Assembly (NCBI GenBank): GCA_029258835.1
Contig: JAPDJY010000080.1
Coordinates: forward strand, 1 to 15,908
Origin: Thermoproteota archaeon
Lineage (GTDB): Archaea; Asgardarchaeota; Jordiarchaeia; Jordiarchaeales; Freyrarchaeaceae
DNA length: 15,908 nt
Reading direction: 5' to 3'
Shown here piece after piece: positions 4,088 to 11,162 of this stretch. The translations under genes and the position numbers were made by a program. Position 1 is the first letter of the stretch. The number at the start of each line of letters is the position of its first letter. Below the pieces are notes generated by a model. The model worked only from the letters and a program-made list of their open reading frames with translations. It was not told the DNA's origin and did not search any database.

Positions 4088-5474
4088 CCCTTCCTCCTCC
4101 CAGCAACCTTATCACTTCATCAAGCCTCGGCATGCTACTTCTAGAGCCAGGTCTCTGAGCTGAAATCGCGCTCGCCGCAAGGCCGAACCTAATGCTTTCC
4201 CTTAAACTCTTCCCATCTAAGACCGCCTTCATGAATCCTGCTGAGAAGGCGTCTCCCGAGCCGCTGGCATCCAACACGTCCACGTCGAAACCGTCCACAT
4301 GTATTCTACCTTCTTTTGTATAGGCGTCACATCCCTCCGTTACCCCCTTAAAAACGATAAGGGTCTTCAACCCTGTCCCGAGAATTTCCGTCTCACTTTC
4401 AGATTTTCCTTTGGACATTTTACTCCATCCTCTCTCGCTTAAGATCAAGAAATCGGTGTTTCGCAGAATGCCTTCTACCTTGTCGACGCCCCTCTTAAGA
4501 TGATGGATTGTAGGTCTGTAGAAAACTTTCAGGTTACGGGTTTTCGCGTAGCTTGCAATCAGCTCGCCTACCTCAACGAACGTCTCACCTATATAGACAG
4601 CCTTAGCATTTTTTATCAGTTCCCAGTTTATTTCTTCTGGGTCAGATATTGAAAGAGCAGTTCTTGCGGTGGCGGTCACATACGCTTTCCTTTCCCCATC
4701 CTCGAAGATCACTATGGTCCTCGGCGTTTGAAGCCTCCGATCTATTATTAAGTTTGTTGCGTCAACGTTTTCCTTTATAAAATCATTAATCATCCTCCAT
4801 CCACATGAATCCCCACCTATCTTCCCAGCAAAACTCACTCTGACCCCAAGCCTTGAAAGCGCTACGGCGACGTTTCCTCCGGATCCACTTGGTGACTCGT
4901 ACACTTCGTGAAGTAAGCCTACTCCGGAAACGAGATTGGCTTTTCTTGATAAAGCTATCGTTTCCATGGAAGCTGAACCATAAACTATTACCTCAGGTTC
5001 GAAGACGGCTTTCTGCAGTTTGGCTAGTGCCTTCGTGACAGCAGCAGAAAAAATTCTCTCAAGTTTTCCAGCTTCCATGTTCTTTTTAAGGCAAAGATCG
5101 ATGATGTTGTCAATGTACGTTTTGAAGAGTTCCTCCAACACTTTCTCTAGATCGAGGGATGGAAGCTGCCTTTTAAACATGAGGAGTATCCATCGTCCAA
5201 TATCAGTTGGCTTATACCAAATAGTGTGCCTTCCCCTTTCCAGCCGGTGACACTCCTCCAGCACTTTCAACTTAACTAGCTTTTTCAAGTGGGCTATAAC
5301 CGTTTTATTCGAGTGTCTAAGTCGTCTTATTATTTCTCTCTGGGCAAGTACCCCTCGGTCTATTTTTTCCAGTATCTCGAACGTAATGGGAGAGCCGAAA
5401 ACCCCCATTAGAAACTCTCTTAAATCGTGCGGGTCAGCTGGAAGAAAAAGCAGGTAGGGCCAGTTTTCCTCCAT
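4062..5474 (-). CDS. Winged-HTH / PfkB(ribokinase)-family kinase fusion protein
   Basis: N-terminal wHTH (FEILEKI..QREIIRRLRHSNKTVIAHLKKLVKLKVLEE..WYKPTDIG). C-terminal PfkB domain (SGSGGNVAVALSRLG, GKIGGDxxG, DASGSGDAFSAGF). Confidence 0.85.
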   Translation of the reverse strand: MEENWPYLLFLPADPHDLREFLMGVFGSPITFEILEKIDRGVLAQREIIRRLRHSNKTVIAHLKKLVKLKVLEECHRLERGRHTIWYKPTDIGRWILLMFKRQLPSLDLEKVLEELFKTYIDNIIDLCLKKNMEAGKLERIFSAAVTKALAKLQKAVFEPEVIVYGSASMETIALSRKANLVSGVGLLHEVYESPSGSGGNVAVALSRLGVRVSFAGKIGGDSCGWRMINDFIKENVDATNLIIDRRLQTPRTIVIFEDGERKAYVTATARTALSISDPEEINWELIKNAKAVYIGETFVEVGELIASYAKTRNLKVFYRPTIHHLKRGVDKVEGILRNTDFLILSERGWSKMSKGKSESETEILGTGLKTLIVFKGVTEGCDAYTKEGRIHVDGFDVDVLDASGSGDAFSAGFMKAVLDGKSLRESIRFGLAASAISAQRPGSRSSMPRLDEVIRLLGGGRDAKENNLR

Positions 5475-5483
5475 CAACCATTT

Positions 5484-5861
5484 TCACCCTTCCACTTTTT
5501 CAATAAACATTAACGGGTAGTTGAGTTCAGGGATATAATCCAGTCTTGCAGTGACCTTCACTGCACCATACTCAACCACTAACCTGACAGAAAGGTTTCT
5601 TCCACTAACTTCAGAGTATCCATAAACATTCACATCTCCAATGCCTTCCTTTATTTTAACTTCCACCGACTTAACATATGGTTGGCAAGAAACCGCCTTT
5701 TCTATCGCTCGCTCAATAAGTGGAATGATCTCTTTCGACACTGGAACGCCGACGAATTGATGGTAGATTGCGCCAAGTTTAATGCCAGCCTCGAAGATGG
5801 CACGGTCTCTTTCACTAACCTCTCTTCCAAAAAAGCCTCTAGTAACATCCTTGTCTCCCAA
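5484..5861 (-). CDS. mptD: Archaeal dihydroneopterin aldolase MptD (DUF381)
   Basis: Motifs RAIFEAGIKLGAIYHQFVGVPV, QPY, YGYSE and LNYPLM. TTG start with a GAGGGGG SD. Confidence 0.9.
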   Translation of the reverse strand: MGDKDVTRGFFGREVSERDRAIFEAGIKLGAIYHQFVGVPVSKEIIPLIERAIEKAVSCQPYVKSVEVKIKEGIGDVNVYGYSEVSGRNLSVRLVVEYGAVKVTARLDYIPELNYPLMFIEKVEG

Positions 5862-5956
5862 AAAAACCCCCTCACTTAGCCTCTAAATTCTAAAACTTTC
5901 CTTTCACCATCACTAAGAAACGTTGCCACATAACCCCCAACTCGACATCGCCTTAA

Positions 5957-5968
5957 GAAATCTTTAAA
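5957..5968 (+). promoter_or_regulatory. BRE-TATA for the AIR-synthase-like gene (divergent region shared with mptD)
   Basis: GAAATCTTTAAA about 55 nt upstream of ATG 6023. The same AAATCTTTAA word lies upstream of radA. Confidence 0.5.
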
Positions 5969-6022
5969 GTTAAATCTAAAGAAAGTTTTCCCTTGGTAGA
6001 AAACGCGAAGGTGCTTTAAAAG

Positions 6023-7402
6023 ATGAGTGATCTTGAAGGGTTAGCAAAGCGGCTTTTCTTGAAGGGTTTCTCCCGCTCCTTGATCCTTGAAAGACTTGCA
6101 TCGGAAGTTACGGTATTTAAGGATGTGGCTGAACAGGATGCTTACGCTTTCGCCGAAGCTGTACTTTCGGAGGTGGAAGCATCTTTGAGGGCCCTAGCTA
6201 ATAAGGAGGTAGGCTGGATCTTAAGGCATCCTAAGAGTGGAGCAACAATGCACGATTTGGGGGTTGGATGTAGAGGGGAAGGGGACTTCTTCGTCCATCA
6301 ACTTCTTTCAGAAATAGCCGACATAGGAGTAGCACGTGTCCTAGGACCTAAAGCGCAAGACGATGCAGGAATCGTCGGCCACGAGGGAAGATTCATTGTT
6401 GTAGCGGTGGATGGAACTCATTCACGTTTAACCGAGTTCCCTTTTATTGCAGGTTTCCATGTGACACGAGCTGCAATGAGGGACGTCTACGTTAAAGGAG
6501 CCAAGCCTGTAGCTCTCTTTACCGACCTTCACCTAGCGGACGATGGGGACATAGGTGTTTTGTTTGACTTTATGGGGGGTGTGAGGGCTGTCTCCCAGCT
6601 ATCCGGTGTCCCCTTAGTAGCGGGCTCAACGCTTAGAGTTGGAGGGGACATGGTTATTGGTACCCGCTTCGTCTCATGCGTTGGGGCGGTTGGAGTAATA
6701 GAAAGGGAGGACATGATAGCTGCTAGACGTAGAATAAAGCCGGGTGACGACGTCATCATGACCGAGGGTGCCGGTGGGGGAACAATAGCAACCACAGCAA
6801 TTTATAGCGGGATGCCTGAGGTTTTACTTGAAACCCTTAACATTCAATTCATTGAGGCGTGTGAGGCTCTCCGTCAAAGCGGACTCTTCAGTAAGATCCA
6901 TGCCGCAACGGACTGGACAAACGGGGGACTTAGAGGAGACTGCAGCGAGATTTGTAGAACCGTCAAGGTGGGAATGAAAATATATGAGGAAAAGGTCAGG
7001 TCCCTTCTAAACAAGAAAGTCTTATCTATGCTTGACACGTTGTCAATAGACTATTTAGGCGTTTCAATGGATGCACTTCTCATATTTAGCCCACCAGAGC
7101 ACACGAAGGAAGTCCTTTATACTTTGAAAAAGGTTAACGTGAAATGTGACGTAGTGGGCGAAGTGATAAGCGATCCTGCCAGACCAATTTTAGTAAGCAA
7201 TGGAAAGGAAACATGCTTAGAGCCACTTTACAGGGAGGCAGCTTACACGAAAATTAAGAAGTTAGTTGGTGAAGAAGCACCTCTAAGAAAGGAAGAGTTC
7301 ATGGCATCCGCTAGGAGAGCTGTCCTCGAATCGCTTGAAAAGACCAAGAGGGTTATTGAGCTCGTAACAAGGAAACGAAGAGAAAAGGCTCCACTACAAT
7401 AA
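6023..7402 (+). CDS. AIR synthase (PurM)-like / HypE-related protein of the archaeal MJ0640-like type, function unknown
   Basis: Motifs GVGCRGEGDFFVH, QDDAG, AVDGTHSRL, RDVYVKGAKP, HLADDGD, GSTLRVGGDM, TEGAGGGT and TDWTNGGLRGD, typical of the PurM-like fold. Confidence 0.8.
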   Translation: MSDLEGLAKRLFLKGFSRSLILERLASEVTVFKDVAEQDAYAFAEAVLSEVEASLRALANKEVGWILRHPKSGATMHDLGVGCRGEGDFFVHQLLSEIADIGVARVLGPKAQDDAGIVGHEGRFIVVAVDGTHSRLTEFPFIAGFHVTRAAMRDVYVKGAKPVALFTDLHLADDGDIGVLFDFMGGVRAVSQLSGVPLVAGSTLRVGGDMVIGTRFVSCVGAVGVIEREDMIAARRRIKPGDDVIMTEGAGGGTIATTAIYSGMPEVLLETLNIQFIEACEALRQSGLFSKIHAATDWTNGGLRGDCSEICRTVKVGMKIYEEKVRSLLNKKVLSMLDTLSIDYLGVSMDALLIFSPPEHTKEVLYTLKKVNVKCDVVGEVISDPARPILVSNGKETCLEPLYREAAYTKIKKLVGEEAPLRKEEFMASARRAVLESLEKTKRVIELVTRKRREKAPLQ

Positions 7403-9102: not shown

Positions 9103-9228
9103 CGTGAAAGCTAACTTTTTAAATGCAAAAAAGTAAACGTTTCTATGAGCTAGAGCTTGCTGCCAGACGTGGCGAATAAGACGTTGAAAGGAAACTCTTC
9201 ATAAAAAGTGGAAGCGTGGGTGTTTGAA

Positions 9229-10170
9229 TTGGTTAAGATATTTTTTGCTAGTGATATTCATGGATCCGAAAGGTGCTGGGTGAAATTTTTACGTGCAACG
9301 GAATTTTACAACGTAGACGTACTGATAATGGGTGGAGACTTAACAGGCAAACTTATAGTACCTATAATAGAAAGGAATAATGGCAGCTATACGTGCTCCA
9401 TTTTCGGGAAAGACTACGTGCTAAGGAGCAAGAAAGAGATAGAGGAGATGGAGGAAAAAATCAGGTTTAGTGGATATTACCCATACGTGACGACCGAAGC
9501 CGAAGTTGAGGAGCTACAGGCGGACGATAGGAAGGTTGATAAGCTCTTTGACAAGTTAATGGTTGAAAGTGTGAAGCGATGGATGGACATGGCGGAGGAA
9601 AGGGTTAAAGACGACGTCATGATCGTAGTGTCCCCTGGAAACGACGACCGGTTCGTAATAGACGACGTTATAAAGTCTTCAAAGAGAGTCATATACCCGG
9701 AGGAAAGAGTCGTCTACATCGATGAACACCCCATGATAAGTTGCTGCTGGGTTAATCCTACCCCATGGAACTCCCCTAGGGAAACGAGTGAGGAGGAACT
9801 GGAGAAACGCTTGAGAAGGGAATTTGACAGGGTTGGGGATTATGAGAAGCTCATCTGTAACTTCCACGCGCCACCATACAAAAGCGGCTTGGATCTAGCT
9901 CCGAAATTGGATAAGAAGATGCGTGTTAAATATTTCATGGGTAAACCACAGTTTAGCCCGGTGGGCTCTAAGGCTGTTCTGAAAGTTATTAAGGAGTTTG
10001 AGCCCATGCTTGGGTTACATGGACATATACATGAAAGTACTGGAGAGAAACATTTTGGCAGGACCCTATGCATAAATCCCGGGTCAGAGTACGGGGAAGG
10101 CATACTGAAGGGATACATAATTGAGGTGAAAAATGGAGAAGTAAGGAAGCATTGGAAGGTTGAAGGGTAA
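9229..10170 (+). CDS. Icc-related calcineurin-like metallophosphoesterase (probable TTG start at 9229)
   Basis: Motifs SDIHGS, GGDLTG, PGNDD, FHAPPY, LHGHIHE and INPGS. Confidence 0.88.
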   Translation: MVKIFFASDIHGSERCWVKFLRATEFYNVDVLIMGGDLTGKLIVPIIERNNGSYTCSIFGKDYVLRSKKEIEEMEEKIRFSGYYPYVTTEAEVEELQADDRKVDKLFDKLMVESVKRWMDMAEERVKDDVMIVVSPGNDDRFVIDDVIKSSKRVIYPEERVVYIDEHPMISCCWVNPTPWNSPRETSEEELEKRLRREFDRVGDYEKLICNFHAPPYKSGLDLAPKLDKKMRVKYFMGKPQFSPVGSKAVLKVIKEFEPMLGLHGHIHESTGEKHFGRTLCINPGSEYGEGILKGYIIEVKNGEVRKHWKVEG

Positions 10171-10211
10171 AGGCTTCTTTGAATGAGGGGGGTAGGTTAA
10201 GGAAGAACAAA

Positions 10212-10234
10212 TTTTTCATTTTTTCATTTTCATT
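10212..10234 (+). terminator. Oligo-T terminator made of TTTTCA units
   Basis: TTTTTCATTTTTTCATTTTCATT about 40 nt after the phosphoesterase stop. Confidence 0.5.
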
Positions 10235-10236
10235 AA

Positions 10237-10410
10237 GGGGTGGGGCTGGGGGTTCACACTTGATATGTTTTTATGGGTAATGTGTGTTTTGGTTTATCAG
10301 GCGTTTCCCCGTCATCGAGGCATGCGCCTCTGATGGGGCTTTCGGGGGACCCCGGAGCCCACATCCGAAGACTCCACCCATAGGCCACCCCGTGGCCAAA
10401 CCAGCACCCC
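10237..10410 (-). ncRNA. Putative structured ncRNA, resembling the omegaRNA/right end of archaeal TnpB-encoding IS elements (orphan)
   Basis: GC-rich intergenic block with hairpins at 10307-10338, 10336-10360 and 10383-10397, a closing pair 10272-10278/10376-10382, and an imperfect terminal inverted repeat. The minus strand reads GATGTGGG...CCCCCGAAAGCC...GATGACGGGGAA followed by an A/C-rich tail. Confidence 0.5.
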
Positions 10411-10524
10411 AAACACCCACCAAATTTTAACTGCTTCGCAAGGTGTTGGTTGAGGGTTAACGTACAATTCCTTCAGGAGGCGATCCTCTAATTTACGAAG
10501 GGAGTGAAGCTATAAATGGACATC

Positions 10525-10535
10525 AAAATTTATAT
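10525..10535 (+). promoter_or_regulatory. BRE-TATA for the Roadblock gene
   Basis: AAAATTTATAT about 46 nt upstream of ATG 10581. Confidence 0.5.
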
Positions 10536-10580
10536 CATTGAAAATGGAAAGGTAAAAATGGACAAGCGGGGTTCTGAAAG

Positions 10581-11162
10581 ATGGCTCTAGATGAGAAAAC
10601 GGCTAGTAGACTGGTTCGACTACTTCAGCAAATAGAAGATTCCACAAGGCTTGAGGGGGTAGCTTTAATTACCAAAGATGGAATAAGGGTGGCATGTGCC
10701 GAATCCGCTAGCGTCGACGTCGACGTTATATCGACAGCTTCCGCAGCGATAATAAGTACAGGTGAAGCAACCACGGTGCAGCTTGGACATGGAAACCTCT
10801 CTGAAATTATAATCAAGGGAGACTCAGGATACCTGATTATAACTCGTGTTGATGAAAACCACATGTTAGTAGCGTCAAGTAAGGACATTGTACGTTTAGG
10901 GTTAAACCTAGGAGTATTAAAACGCTACGCACACTCTATAGCCGGACTTCTCGCCCAAGTGAAGGTTAGGGCTGCAGCCCCGACACCAGCTACAGTACCC
11001 CGACCAGCCCATCCTTCAACAGGGGTCACAGTTAAGGAGGAGGCTACACCGGTTAGCGATAGAGAAGCGATCTTTGAGGCTCTCAGAGCGCTGGGACTTG
11101 AAGACGCTGTGACCGAAATTAAGTCTCAAGAAAAGAAGTTTGAGAAAGCTGAGAAAGTATGA
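10581..11162 (+). CDS. Roadblock/LC7 (MglB-like) domain protein with a Pro/Thr-rich linker and C-terminal helix
   Basis: Residues ~1-125 fit the roadblock fold (LEGVALITKDG, ISTASAAIISTGE, LGHGNLSEIIIKGDSGYLII, LGL). They are followed by AAAPTPATVPRPAHP and DREAIFEALRALGL. Confidence 0.88.
   Translation: MALDEKTASRLVRLLQQIEDSTRLEGVALITKDGIRVACAESASVDVDVISTASAAIISTGEATTVQLGHGNLSEIIIKGDSGYLIITRVDENHMLVASSKDIVRLGLNLGVLKRYAHSIAGLLAQVKVRAAAPTPATVPRPAHPSTGVTVKEEATPVSDREAIFEALRALGLEDAVTEIKSQEKKFEKAEKV

What the first reader, a model, noticed from the sequence alone, without database searches (positions are those of the whole stretch)
10237..10430. Orphan ~175-nt structured RNA resembling the omegaRNA/right end of archaeal TnpB elements, with no tnpB gene in the window
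Seen: a GC-rich island in a 410-bp gap with hairpin A (CCCCGTCA/TGATGGGG plus GAGGC/GCCTC, 10307-10338), overlapping hairpin B (GGGCT..CGGG/CCCG..AGCCC, 10336-10360) and hairpin C (GGCCAC/GTGGCC, 10383-10397). There is also a perfect 7-bp long-range pair TATGGGT/ACCCATA, a minus-strand cUUCGg, and an outer imperfect repeat (10237-10249 / 10401-10410). The minus strand reads CTTCGGATGTGGGCTCCGGGGTCCCCCGAAAGCCCC...GATGACGGGGAAAC, then an A/C-rich tail ending GTGAACC (10251). From memory, this resembles 3' ends of archaeal IS605/IS607 tnpB genes (the L(R/K)MWG..PPES/KA tail; here LRMWAPGSPESP), where the omegaRNA scaffold lies. A weak TATA-like TTAAAATTT (10430-10422) sits upstream. Inference: a stand-alone or domesticated guide RNA acting in trans with a TnpB-like protein encoded elsewhere, with a candidate guide beginning about 10250 (CCCAGCCCCACCCCTTAATG). 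It could instead be a non-autonomous MITE-like remnant.
Basis: partly seen in the sequence, partly recalled or inferred. Interest (0 to 1): 0.72.

Follow-up and report, generated by a model that had tools for sequence, protein, structure and literature searches.

The report
Protein-less transposon carrying TnpB guide RNA
The GC-rich island is one of 23 copies of a roughly 195-bp gene-less mobile element in an archaeon from hydrothermal sediment; it keeps only the ends, a promoter-like box and the guide-RNA scaffold of a TnpB transposon, which makes it a well-documented new example of an already known kind of stand-alone guide cassette.

Summary
Window 10249-10441 is a 193-bp insert whose RNA sense is the minus strand. 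The host-derived A-CC at 10442-10444 completes the repeat unit.

- **Copy number.** It is one of 23 copies of a protein-less mini-transposon in this 2.72-Mb genome.
- **Homology to tnpB ends.** Its last ~126 nt recur at the 3' ends of seven tnpB genes in the same genome. Only one of these is intact (contig C9, 394 aa, RuvC D/E/D motifs present).
- **Content.** The mini-element keeps a left end with a TATA-like box and a 15-nt hairpin from inside tnpB. It also keeps nearly the whole omegaRNA scaffold, which ends in GTGAACC-CC, followed by a unique flank that would serve as the guide.
- **Structure.** The helices covary across copies and across tnpB orthologues in other archaeal phyla.
- **Mobility.** Filled and empty alleles show precise insertion at a CC (GG) dinucleotide with no target duplication, which is the IS607 (serine recombinase) signature. 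The window copy is absent from a related strain (net -193 bp).

Use of the RNA in trans by TnpB for homing is inferred, not shown. Stand-alone omegaRNAs and PATEs that encode omegaRNAs are already published. This scan has also reported the same family from other windows of this genome. It is a new member of a known kind.

The parts
10442..10444 (-). Host target nucleotides next to the left end. They read A-CC in sense, where other copies have G-CC. The CC is the crossover dinucleotide, and this is the TAM-like position (family consensus A-Y-G-C-C).
   Evidence: Filled versus empty alleles show that G-CC belongs to the target and that CC is present on both sides of the insert. In contig C40, GCC is an Ala codon of the interrupted ATPase gene. 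Flank logo.
10249..10441 (-). The inserted mini-transposon, 193 bp. The boundary can be shifted by 2 nt because of the CC repeat.
   Evidence: Sharp repeat boundaries in 23 copies. A DNA contig of run X2 joins 10240 to 10486 with 52 other letters between, a net loss of 193 bp.
10398..10441 (-). Left end (LE). It starts TTGCGAAGCAG and carries the TATA-like box TTAAAATTT at 10430-10422.
   Evidence: The first ~20 nt are nearly invariant among copies. The same GCGAAAC..TAAATATTTGG left end precedes the leaderless tnpA(serine)-tnpB operon of a degenerate IS607 on contig C56 and of an Archaeoglobaceae orthologue.
10383..10397 (-). Hairpin 1 (GGCCAC-GGG-GUGGCC). It is retained from inside the tnpB coding region, about 190 nt upstream of the right end in the parent IS.
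   Evidence: Aligns to L009:3371-3400. The six-bp stem covaries in 17 sequences from many archaeal phyla: 90% of cells paired, 18 double changes, 0 of 500 shuffles as high.
10249..10375 (-). Right end, equal to the core of the omegaRNA scaffold. It contains the hairpins at 10335-10362 and 10307-10338 and the terminal helix 10294-10304 / 10256-10266, and it ends GTGAACC-CC.
   Evidence: Homologous to the 3' ends of seven tnpB genes and of orthologues in other phyla, all ending in GAACCC. Covariation: 8-9 pairs with changes on both sides, 0 of 500 shuffles reach the observed score.
10229..10248 (-). Predicted guide (the unique flank transcribed after the scaffold). It reads CAGCCCCACCCCTTAATGAA in sense.
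   Evidence: Conservation stops exactly at 10249 in all copies. The 20-mer has no second full match in the genome. Its use as a guide is inferred.

Best explanation
Window 10249-10441 (sense on the minus strand) is a non-autonomous, protein-less derivative of an IS607-type element that carries an HTH gene and tnpB.

**Shown**
- It is an internally deleted copy of that element. It keeps about 45 nt of the left end with a TATA-like box, a covarying hairpin from inside tnpB, and the ~126-nt right end that overlaps the 3' end of tnpB in the parent IS.
- It inserted at a CC (GG) dinucleotide without a target duplication.
- It is present or absent among natural strains.
- Its helices are conserved by compensatory change.

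**Inferred**
- The left-end promoter transcribes the scaffold and runs into the flank. This would give an omegaRNA of roughly 170 nt whose 3' guide matches the adjacent host DNA.
- When a serine TnpA supplied in trans excises the element and reseals the site as (A/G)CC followed by the flank, TnpB supplied in trans would load this RNA. The only intact cognate gene is on contig C9.
- TnpB would then cut the emptied site, and recombination with a filled sister chromosome would restore the element. This is homing, as shown for IS605 and IS607 elements in bacteria.
For: 1. **Repeat family.** There are 23 mini-copies of 196-207 bp plus 7 copies of the right-end part, with sharp ends and unrelated flanks.
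2. **Link to tnpB.** All 7 right-end-only copies abut the TnpB zinc-ribbon (TNB) domain. The C9 gene is 394 aa with OrfB_IS605 and TNB domains, and its D/E/D and zinc-finger motifs are aligned to ISDra2 TnpB.
3. **Origin by deletion.** The mini-element aligns to the 1420-bp IS as left end, then hairpin piece, then right end, with a 60-nt deletion.
4. **Cross-phylum conservation.** TnpB orthologues at 60-74% identity in MAGs of many archaeal phyla carry the same scaffold, ending in GAACCC just before the divergent flank.
5. **Covariation.** Hairpin 1 and the right-end helices exceed all 500 shuffles and all slid controls.
6. **Precise insertion.**
   - Empty sites on C17 and C67 of this genome match filled metagenome contigs L090 and L095. 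CC is kept on both sides and there is no duplication.
   - Removing 196 bp restores a P-type ATPase ORF on C40.
   - The window copy is missing (net -193 bp) in a contig of DNA run X2.
7. **IS607 affinity.** The small ORF upstream of tnpB is an HTH_17/MerR domain, 40-56% identical to the N-termini of the genome's serine TnpA genes. IS607 is known to use a GG core and to make no TSD (10.1101/2023.11.20.567912).
8. **More retained than transposition needs.** An IS607 element needed only 40 bp of left end and 60 bp of right end for excision (same preprint). Here about 126 + 30 nt of scaffold are kept.
9. **Guides.** Each guide matches only its own flank.
10. **Precedent.** Stand-alone omegaRNAs work in trans with compatible effectors (PMC10691335, citing Altae-Tran 2021). 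PATEs often encode omegaRNAs (PMC10055086).
Against: - There is no direct evidence of transcription, RNA ends or strand. The only RNA data are metatranscriptome contigs that cover 10249-10347 and come from other copies.
- No intact serine TnpA with matching ends was found in this 95%-complete assembly. The two IS607 copies on C56 with similar ends have frameshifted tnpA.
- Only one cognate tnpB looks intact.
- The mini-element lacks 60 nt that the parent scaffold region contains, and the effect on TnpB binding is unknown.
- The window copy deviates from the family. It has A instead of G at the TAM-like position, a 1-nt deletion in hairpin B and a mismatch in the terminal helix. It is only 81-93% identical to other copies.
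- Some compensatory variants in mini-copies are shared with IS copies, so they may be inherited from different master copies and not selected within the mini-elements.
- G-U versus A-C counts do not single out one strand.
Confidence: 0.8

Rival explanations
1. It is an inert transposon relic. On this reading it is a non-autonomous mini-IS whose retained right end reflects only ancestry and recombinase binding sites, and no functional guide RNA is made or used.
For: - No expression data with strand or ends.
- Copies are 7-19% diverged from the window copy.
- No intact cognate serine TnpA was found, and six of the seven cognate tnpB genes are broken or cut by a contig end.
- The window copy has small scaffold defects and an atypical TAM-like base.
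Against: - Far more of the scaffold is retained than an IS607 needed for excision, which was 40 bp and 60 bp (10.1101/2023.11.20.567912).
- A hairpin from inside tnpB is kept while the neighbouring 60 nt are deleted.
- The left-end promoter box is nearly invariant.
- Presence/absence polymorphism at three or more sites shows recent mobility.
Confidence: 0.15
2. It is a domesticated trans-acting guide RNA. On this reading the host has recruited this particular copy, together with a TnpB-like protein, to regulate or target a host or foreign sequence, as TldR-type repressors do.
For: It sits alone in a core-gene spacer between a metallophosphoesterase gene and a Roadblock/LC7 gene, with its own TATA-like box and no tnpB in the window.
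Against: - It is one of 23 copies with arbitrary flanks.
- It is absent from a related strain.
- It was not found in 40 relatives, apart from tnpB-linked scaffolds in one of them.
- The guide has no second target in the genome.
- The cognate TnpB keeps its catalytic motifs.
Confidence: 0.03
3. It is another class of structured archaeal RNA, such as a C/D or H/ACA guide, a K-turn RNA or a riboswitch, that merely resembles a tnpB end.
For: It is GC-rich with several hairpins in an AT-richer genome, and it has GAUGA-like motifs.
Against: - No Rfam family matched at the gathering threshold or at E up to 10.
- There is direct sequence homology to tnpB 3' ends within the genome and across phyla.
Confidence: 0.01

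Closest known systems
Stand-alone omegaRNAs of OMEGA systems (Altae-Tran et al. 2021, as summarised in PMC10691335)
   Same: A mobilised omegaRNA locus without effector or transposase, in a genome that also holds a compatible effector-containing locus. The guide is taken from the flank.
   Different: This one is archaeal and derives from an IS607-type (serine recombinase) lineage. It carries the left-end promoter box and an internally deleted scaffold. Function in trans has not been tested here.
PATE-like minimal elements of IS200/IS605 (Geobacillus stearothermophilus, PMC10055086; Haloquadratum PATEs, PMC3119063)
   Same: A protein-less element of left end plus right end, present in many copies, that often encodes an omegaRNA which must be used by a TnpB encoded in another IS.
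   Different: PATEs belong to the Y1-transposase, single-strand 'peel and paste' family, with subterminal palindromes and a tetra- or pentanucleotide TAM. This element instead inserts at a CC/GG dinucleotide kept at both junctions, and its parent carries an IS607-type HTH.
IS607-family TnpB elements, e.g. CboIStron and its engineered mini-IS (10.1101/2023.11.20.567912)
   Same: No inverted repeats and no TSD. There is a dinucleotide core at both junctions, the omegaRNA scaffold ends in that core, the TAM includes the core, and TnpB promotes retention after scarless excision.
   Different: The core and TAM read (A)YGCC on the tnpB sense strand, where CboIStron has TGGG. The natural parent IS has lost the recombinase catalytic domain and keeps only a 64-aa HTH. 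The mini-element is natural, not engineered.

Membership tests
TnpB omegaRNA scaffold (OMEGA guide RNA) | Lies at the 3' end of tnpB, overlapping the ORF end, and reaches the transposon right end | tested here: met
   Seven homologous copies abut or overlap the TNB domain of tnpB genes. In C9 the stop codon lies inside the terminal GTGAACCCC.
TnpB omegaRNA scaffold (OMEGA guide RNA) | Conserved secondary structure supported by covariation | tested here: met
   Hairpin 1 has 18 double changes and 0 of 500 shuffles as high. The right-end helices have 8-9 pairs with changes on both sides and 0 of 500 shuffles as high.
TnpB omegaRNA scaffold (OMEGA guide RNA) | The scaffold ends exactly at the element boundary and is followed by a copy-specific guide | tested here: met
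   Conservation stops at GAACC-CC in all 29 copies whose right end is assembled and in orthologues. The boundary is confirmed by empty sites.
TnpB omegaRNA scaffold (OMEGA guide RNA) | Transcribed, processed and bound by TnpB, and directs TAM-dependent DNA cleavage | not testable with these tools
   Only metatranscriptome contigs without strand or ends were available, and they come from other copies.
TnpB omegaRNA scaffold (OMEGA guide RNA) | Match to a curated Rfam model | tested here: not met
   No hit at the gathering threshold or at E up to 10. This lineage appears to have no curated family.
IS607 family (serine-recombinase transposons) | Encodes a serine TnpA | tested here: not met
   The mini-element has no ORF. 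Its parent IS keeps only the 64-aa HTH_17/MerR N-domain, which is homologous to serine TnpA N-termini. Serine TnpA genes exist elsewhere in the genome.
IS607 family (serine-recombinase transposons) | No terminal inverted repeats, no target-site duplication, and insertion at a GG/CC core dinucleotide present at both junctions | tested here: met
   Filled versus empty alleles on C17/L090 and C67/L095, the ATPase restoration on C40 and the flank logos.
Classical MITE (TIR plus TSD, derived from a DDE transposon) | Terminal inverted repeats and a target-site duplication | tested here: not met
   The ends TTGCGAAG... and ...GTGAACC are not inverted repeats, and no duplication is present. 'MITE' applies only in the loose sense of a miniature non-autonomous element.
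PATE (non-autonomous IS200/IS605 derivative) | Belongs to a Y1-TnpA lineage, with insertion 3' of a TAM and no shared junction dinucleotide | tested here: not met
   The parent carries an IS607-type HTH. The CC core is on both sides of the insert. Only two broken Y1 tnpA genes are in the genome.
Stand-alone (orphan) omegaRNA locus | A mobilised omegaRNA without adjacent effector or transposase, with a compatible effector elsewhere in the same genome | tested here: met
   There is no tnpB in the 15.9-kb window. There are 23 copies and insertion polymorphism. The cognate intact tnpB is on C9, and its right end is about 90% identical.

The most novel reading that the evidence does not exclude
The family would be an active 'hyperparasite' of two trans-acting functions. 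On this reading, promoter-bearing guide-RNA cassettes outnumber their single intact nuclease gene 23 to 1. They borrow a serine recombinase to move and TnpB to home back into emptied sites, so the unit under selection is the guide RNA gene itself. A side effect would be outward transcription from the left-end promoter into neighbouring host genes.
Probability: 0.35. Interest if true: 0.5.

Novelty: new member of a known kind. Interest (0 to 1): 0.35.

Why it matters
- **For annotation.** It explains a conspicuous GC-rich 'orphan RNA' in a core-gene spacer, and 22 similar islands elsewhere in the genome, as one mobile family. This stops them being read as independent novel ncRNA genes.
- **For TnpB biology.**
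  - It gives a natural archaeal, IS607-type counterpart to the bacterial IS605 PATEs and stand-alone omegaRNAs.
  - The insertion boundaries are exact, a candidate TAM (A-Y-G-C-C) is defined, and the scaffold is trimmed by about 60 nt relative to the parent.
  - Natural presence/absence alleles are available.
  - That combination provides a ready design for a compact thermophilic TnpB/omegaRNA pair, and for testing whether guide-only cassettes really exploit TnpB homing.

Tried and rejected
- **Rfam.** Nothing at the gathering threshold or at E up to 10.
- **Orthologous empty site in 40 relatives.** Not informative. The two flanking genes are not adjacent in relatives, and identity is only about 70%.
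- **First metagenome scan, with a 29-nt pattern from the Roadblock gene.** 0 hits.
- **7-bp long-range pair TATGGGT/ACCCATA.** Kept in most mini-copies, but with no covariation, and not conserved in orthologues. Left open.
- **Outer imperfect repeat 10237-10249 / 10401-10410.** One arm lies in unique flank, so it was rejected as chance.
- **Two alternative pairings for the CCCC/GGGG runs** (hairpin B outer stem plus a 3'-terminal GGG/CCC helix, against one long hairpin A). Both score alike, so they are not resolved.
- **Strand assignment from G-U versus A-C counts.** Not decisive. The strand rests on the tnpB orientation.
- **Second targets for the 20-nt guides.** Only chance 15-16-nt matches.
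- **RNA evidence.** Metatranscriptome contigs touch 10249-10347 but derive from other copies and give no strand or ends. The rest of the element and most of the adjacent spacer (10025-10248 and 10348-10559) have no RNA-contig cover.
- **Intact cognate serine TnpA.** The two IS607 copies on C56 with similar ends are frameshifted. Other serine TnpA elements in the genome end in GAACGG, not GAACCCC.

Full report
**Observation**

The region 10237-10430 sits in the 410-bp spacer between a metallophosphoesterase gene (9208-10170, +) and a Roadblock/LC7 gene (10581-11162, +). The hairpins, the CUUCGG, the TATGGGT/ACCCATA pair, the TATA-like TTAAAATTT and the GTGAACC end are all present at the stated places. 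GC rises to 0.51-0.565 against 0.385-0.45 beside it. The minus strand folds at z = -2.46 and the plus strand at z = -1.78 relative to shuffles. Rfam has no match at the gathering threshold or at E up to 10.

**A repeat family**

A search of the window's own genome (2.72 Mb, 91 contigs, about 95% complete) found 30 homologous copies.
- Twenty-three are full mini-elements of 196-207 bp, counted with the three host nucleotides at the left junction. One of them is cut by a contig end.
- They are 81-93% identical to the window copy.
- Seven further copies share only the last ~126 nt.
- Boundaries are sharp and the flanks are unrelated. In RNA sense (window minus strand) every full copy reads (G)CC-TTGCGAAGCAG ... 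GTGAACC-CC.

**Link to tnpB**

All seven partial copies lie exactly at the 3' end of TnpB genes. The Cas12f1-like TNB domain ends where the repeat begins.
- Only the C9 gene is intact: 394 aa, with OrfB_IS605 and TNB domains. Its FDIN, ILED and DRD motifs and two CxxC pairs are aligned to ISDra2 TnpB.
- Its ORF runs through the whole scaffold, and its stop codon lies inside the terminal GTGAACCCC.
- The parent IS (L009:2167-3586, 1420 bp) has a left end GCC-TTGTGTAGC, a TATA box and a 64-aa HTH_17/MerR ORF overlapping the tnpB start. It has no recombinase domain.
- That HTH is 40-56% identical to the N-termini of the genome's IS607-type serine TnpA genes.
- Orthologous elements in other archaea have the same arrangement of HTH gene plus tnpB.

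**Anatomy of the mini-element**

Aligned to the IS, the element has four parts:
- about 45 nt of left end;
- a 30-nt piece from inside tnpB (L009:3371-3400) that forms hairpin 1;
- a deletion of the next 60 nt;
- the ~126-nt right end.

Its left end, GCGAA(A/G)CAGTTAAATATTTGG, is closest to the left end of a degenerate IS607 on C56 and to that of an Archaeoglobaceae orthologue. In both of those, the same TAAATATTT box precedes a leaderless tnpA start by about 30 nt. The box is therefore a native IS promoter element and not a chance AT run. In the mini-element it lies about 25 nt upstream of hairpin 1.

**Conservation and covariation**

TnpB orthologues at 60-74% amino-acid identity occur in MAGs labelled Desulfurococcaceae, Baldrarchaeota, Archaeoglobaceae, Nitrososphaeria, Brockarchaeota, Jordarchaeia and Bathyarchaeia. 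Their 3' regions align with the scaffold, and all end in GAACCC(C) just before the flanks diverge.
- Hairpin 1 lies inside zinc-finger coding sequence. It is paired in 90% of cells, with 18 double changes against 6.1 expected, and 0 of 500 shuffles reach that.
- In the right end, the apical stem of hairpin A and the 10-bp terminal helix (10294-10304 with 10256-10266) carry 8-9 pairs with changes on both sides. Again 0 of 500 shuffles reach the observed score, and all slid controls are far lower.
- Two alternative pairings of the CCCC/GGGG runs cannot be separated.
- The 7-bp long-range pair shows no covariation.

**Exact boundaries and mode of insertion**

A scan of public metagenome contigs with a junction specific to the mini-element gave 11 contigs.
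- Most are the same insertions as in this genome. Two are filled where this genome is empty.
- On C17 the empty allele reads ...aaggatG-CC-taggtatat. The filled allele reads ...aaggacG-CC-[196 bp]-taggtatat, with CC again at the end of the insert.
- C67 shows the same pattern, with two differing bases just after the CC.
Deleting 196 bp (C40:1630-1825) restores a 388-aa P-type ATPase ORF, and the GCC is its Ala codon.
- For the window copy, a 3.4-kb DNA contig of run X2 (hydrothermal vent metagenome) joins 10240 to 10486 with 52 other letters between. That is a net loss of 193 bp, exactly the predicted insert 10249-10441.

The element therefore has no inverted repeats and no duplication, and one dinucleotide is shared by both junctions. 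This is the IS607 signature described for CboIStron, which uses a GG core, a TGGG TAM and a scaffold ending in GG (10.1101/2023.11.20.567912). Here the sense-strand target motif is A-Y-G-C-C. The window copy has A where the others have G.

**Mechanism**

The anatomy, homology, covariation, boundaries and mobility above are shown. The rest is inferred.
- The left-end promoter would drive a minus-strand RNA through the scaffold into the flank (guide 10248-10229).
- A serine TnpA acting in trans would excise the element scarlessly.
- TnpB from C9 would load the RNA and cut the resealed (A/G)CC-plus-flank site.
- Recombination with a filled chromosome copy would restore the element. This follows what has been shown for IS605 and IS607 in bacteria (PMC10055086; 10.1101/2023.11.20.567912).

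Points in favour of function:
- An IS607 needed only 40 bp of left end and 60 bp of right end for excision, whereas this element keeps about 156 nt of scaffold plus the promoter box.
- Each guide matches only its own flank.

Points against, or still open:
- There are no strand-resolved RNA data.
- No intact serine TnpA with matching ends was found. The C56 copies are frameshifted, and the other IS607 elements end in GAACGG.
- The scaffold has a 60-nt deletion whose effect is unknown.
- The window copy has small defects.

**Comparison and novelty**

Stand-alone, mobilised omegaRNAs that work in trans are published (PMC10691335, citing Altae-Tran 2021). So is the remark that PATEs often encode omegaRNAs used by TnpB from other elements (PMC10055086). 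This family differs in three ways: it is archaeal, it is IS607-type and not IS605-type, and it is a natural internally trimmed scaffold with its own promoter box.

My library searches found no description of an archaeal IS607-derived guide-only element, but that is a limited search. Earlier notes of this scan describe the same family from other windows of this genome and reach the same verdict. It is a new member of a known kind.

Noticed in passing
L009:2167-3586 (genome contig C9:45666-47085): The parent IS encodes only a 64-aa HTH_17/MerR protein (the N-domain of an IS607 serine TnpA, with the catalytic domain lost) plus tnpB. The same HTH-plus-tnpB architecture recurs in orthologues from several archaeal phyla, so the solo HTH looks conserved and not like a decay product.
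   Followed up: partly
L062-L086: TnpB orthologues of 60-74% amino-acid identity are spread over MAGs labelled Desulfurococcaceae, Baldrarchaeota, Archaeoglobaceae, Nitrososphaeria, Brockarchaeota, Jordarchaeia and Bathyarchaeia. This suggests horizontal spread among thermophilic archaea.
   Followed up: no
genome contig C67 ~6607-6612 versus L095:100-300: Between the empty allele (this genome) and the filled allele (metagenome contig), the two bases directly 3' of the CC core differ (GC versus AT). These are the TAM-proximal positions of the would-be target. This could be a strain polymorphism or a cleavage-escape or repair footprint.
   Followed up: no
L089 (genome contig C56:900-2800 and 4600-6650): Two degenerate IS607 copies (frameshifted serine tnpA plus tnpB) have a right end ...GCTGAACCCC. 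One of them has a left end GCTTCGCGAAACTGTAAATATTTGG that resembles the mini-element ends more than the C9 left end does. The mini-element may therefore be chimeric, or derived from this lineage.
   Followed up: partly
genome contig C13:2912-3109 and its flank (RNA run X10): A 416-nt metatranscriptome contig joins the right-end part of the C13 mini-copy to 219 nt of its downstream flank, where an ORF starts 21 nt after the element. This could be read-out transcription from the element into a host gene, or DNA carry-over in the RNA library.
   Followed up: no
genome contig C40:1630-1825: One mini-copy interrupts a P-type ATPase gene within its HAD/hydrolase domain. Removing it restores a 388-aa frame.
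   Followed up: yes
genome-wide: The genome holds several other TnpB lineages. Their 3' regions begin with the same GAUGUGGGG...CCCCGAAAGCCC hairpin but end differently: GAACGG for the IS607 copies with serine TnpA, and GUAGUUCAC for others.
   Followed up: no
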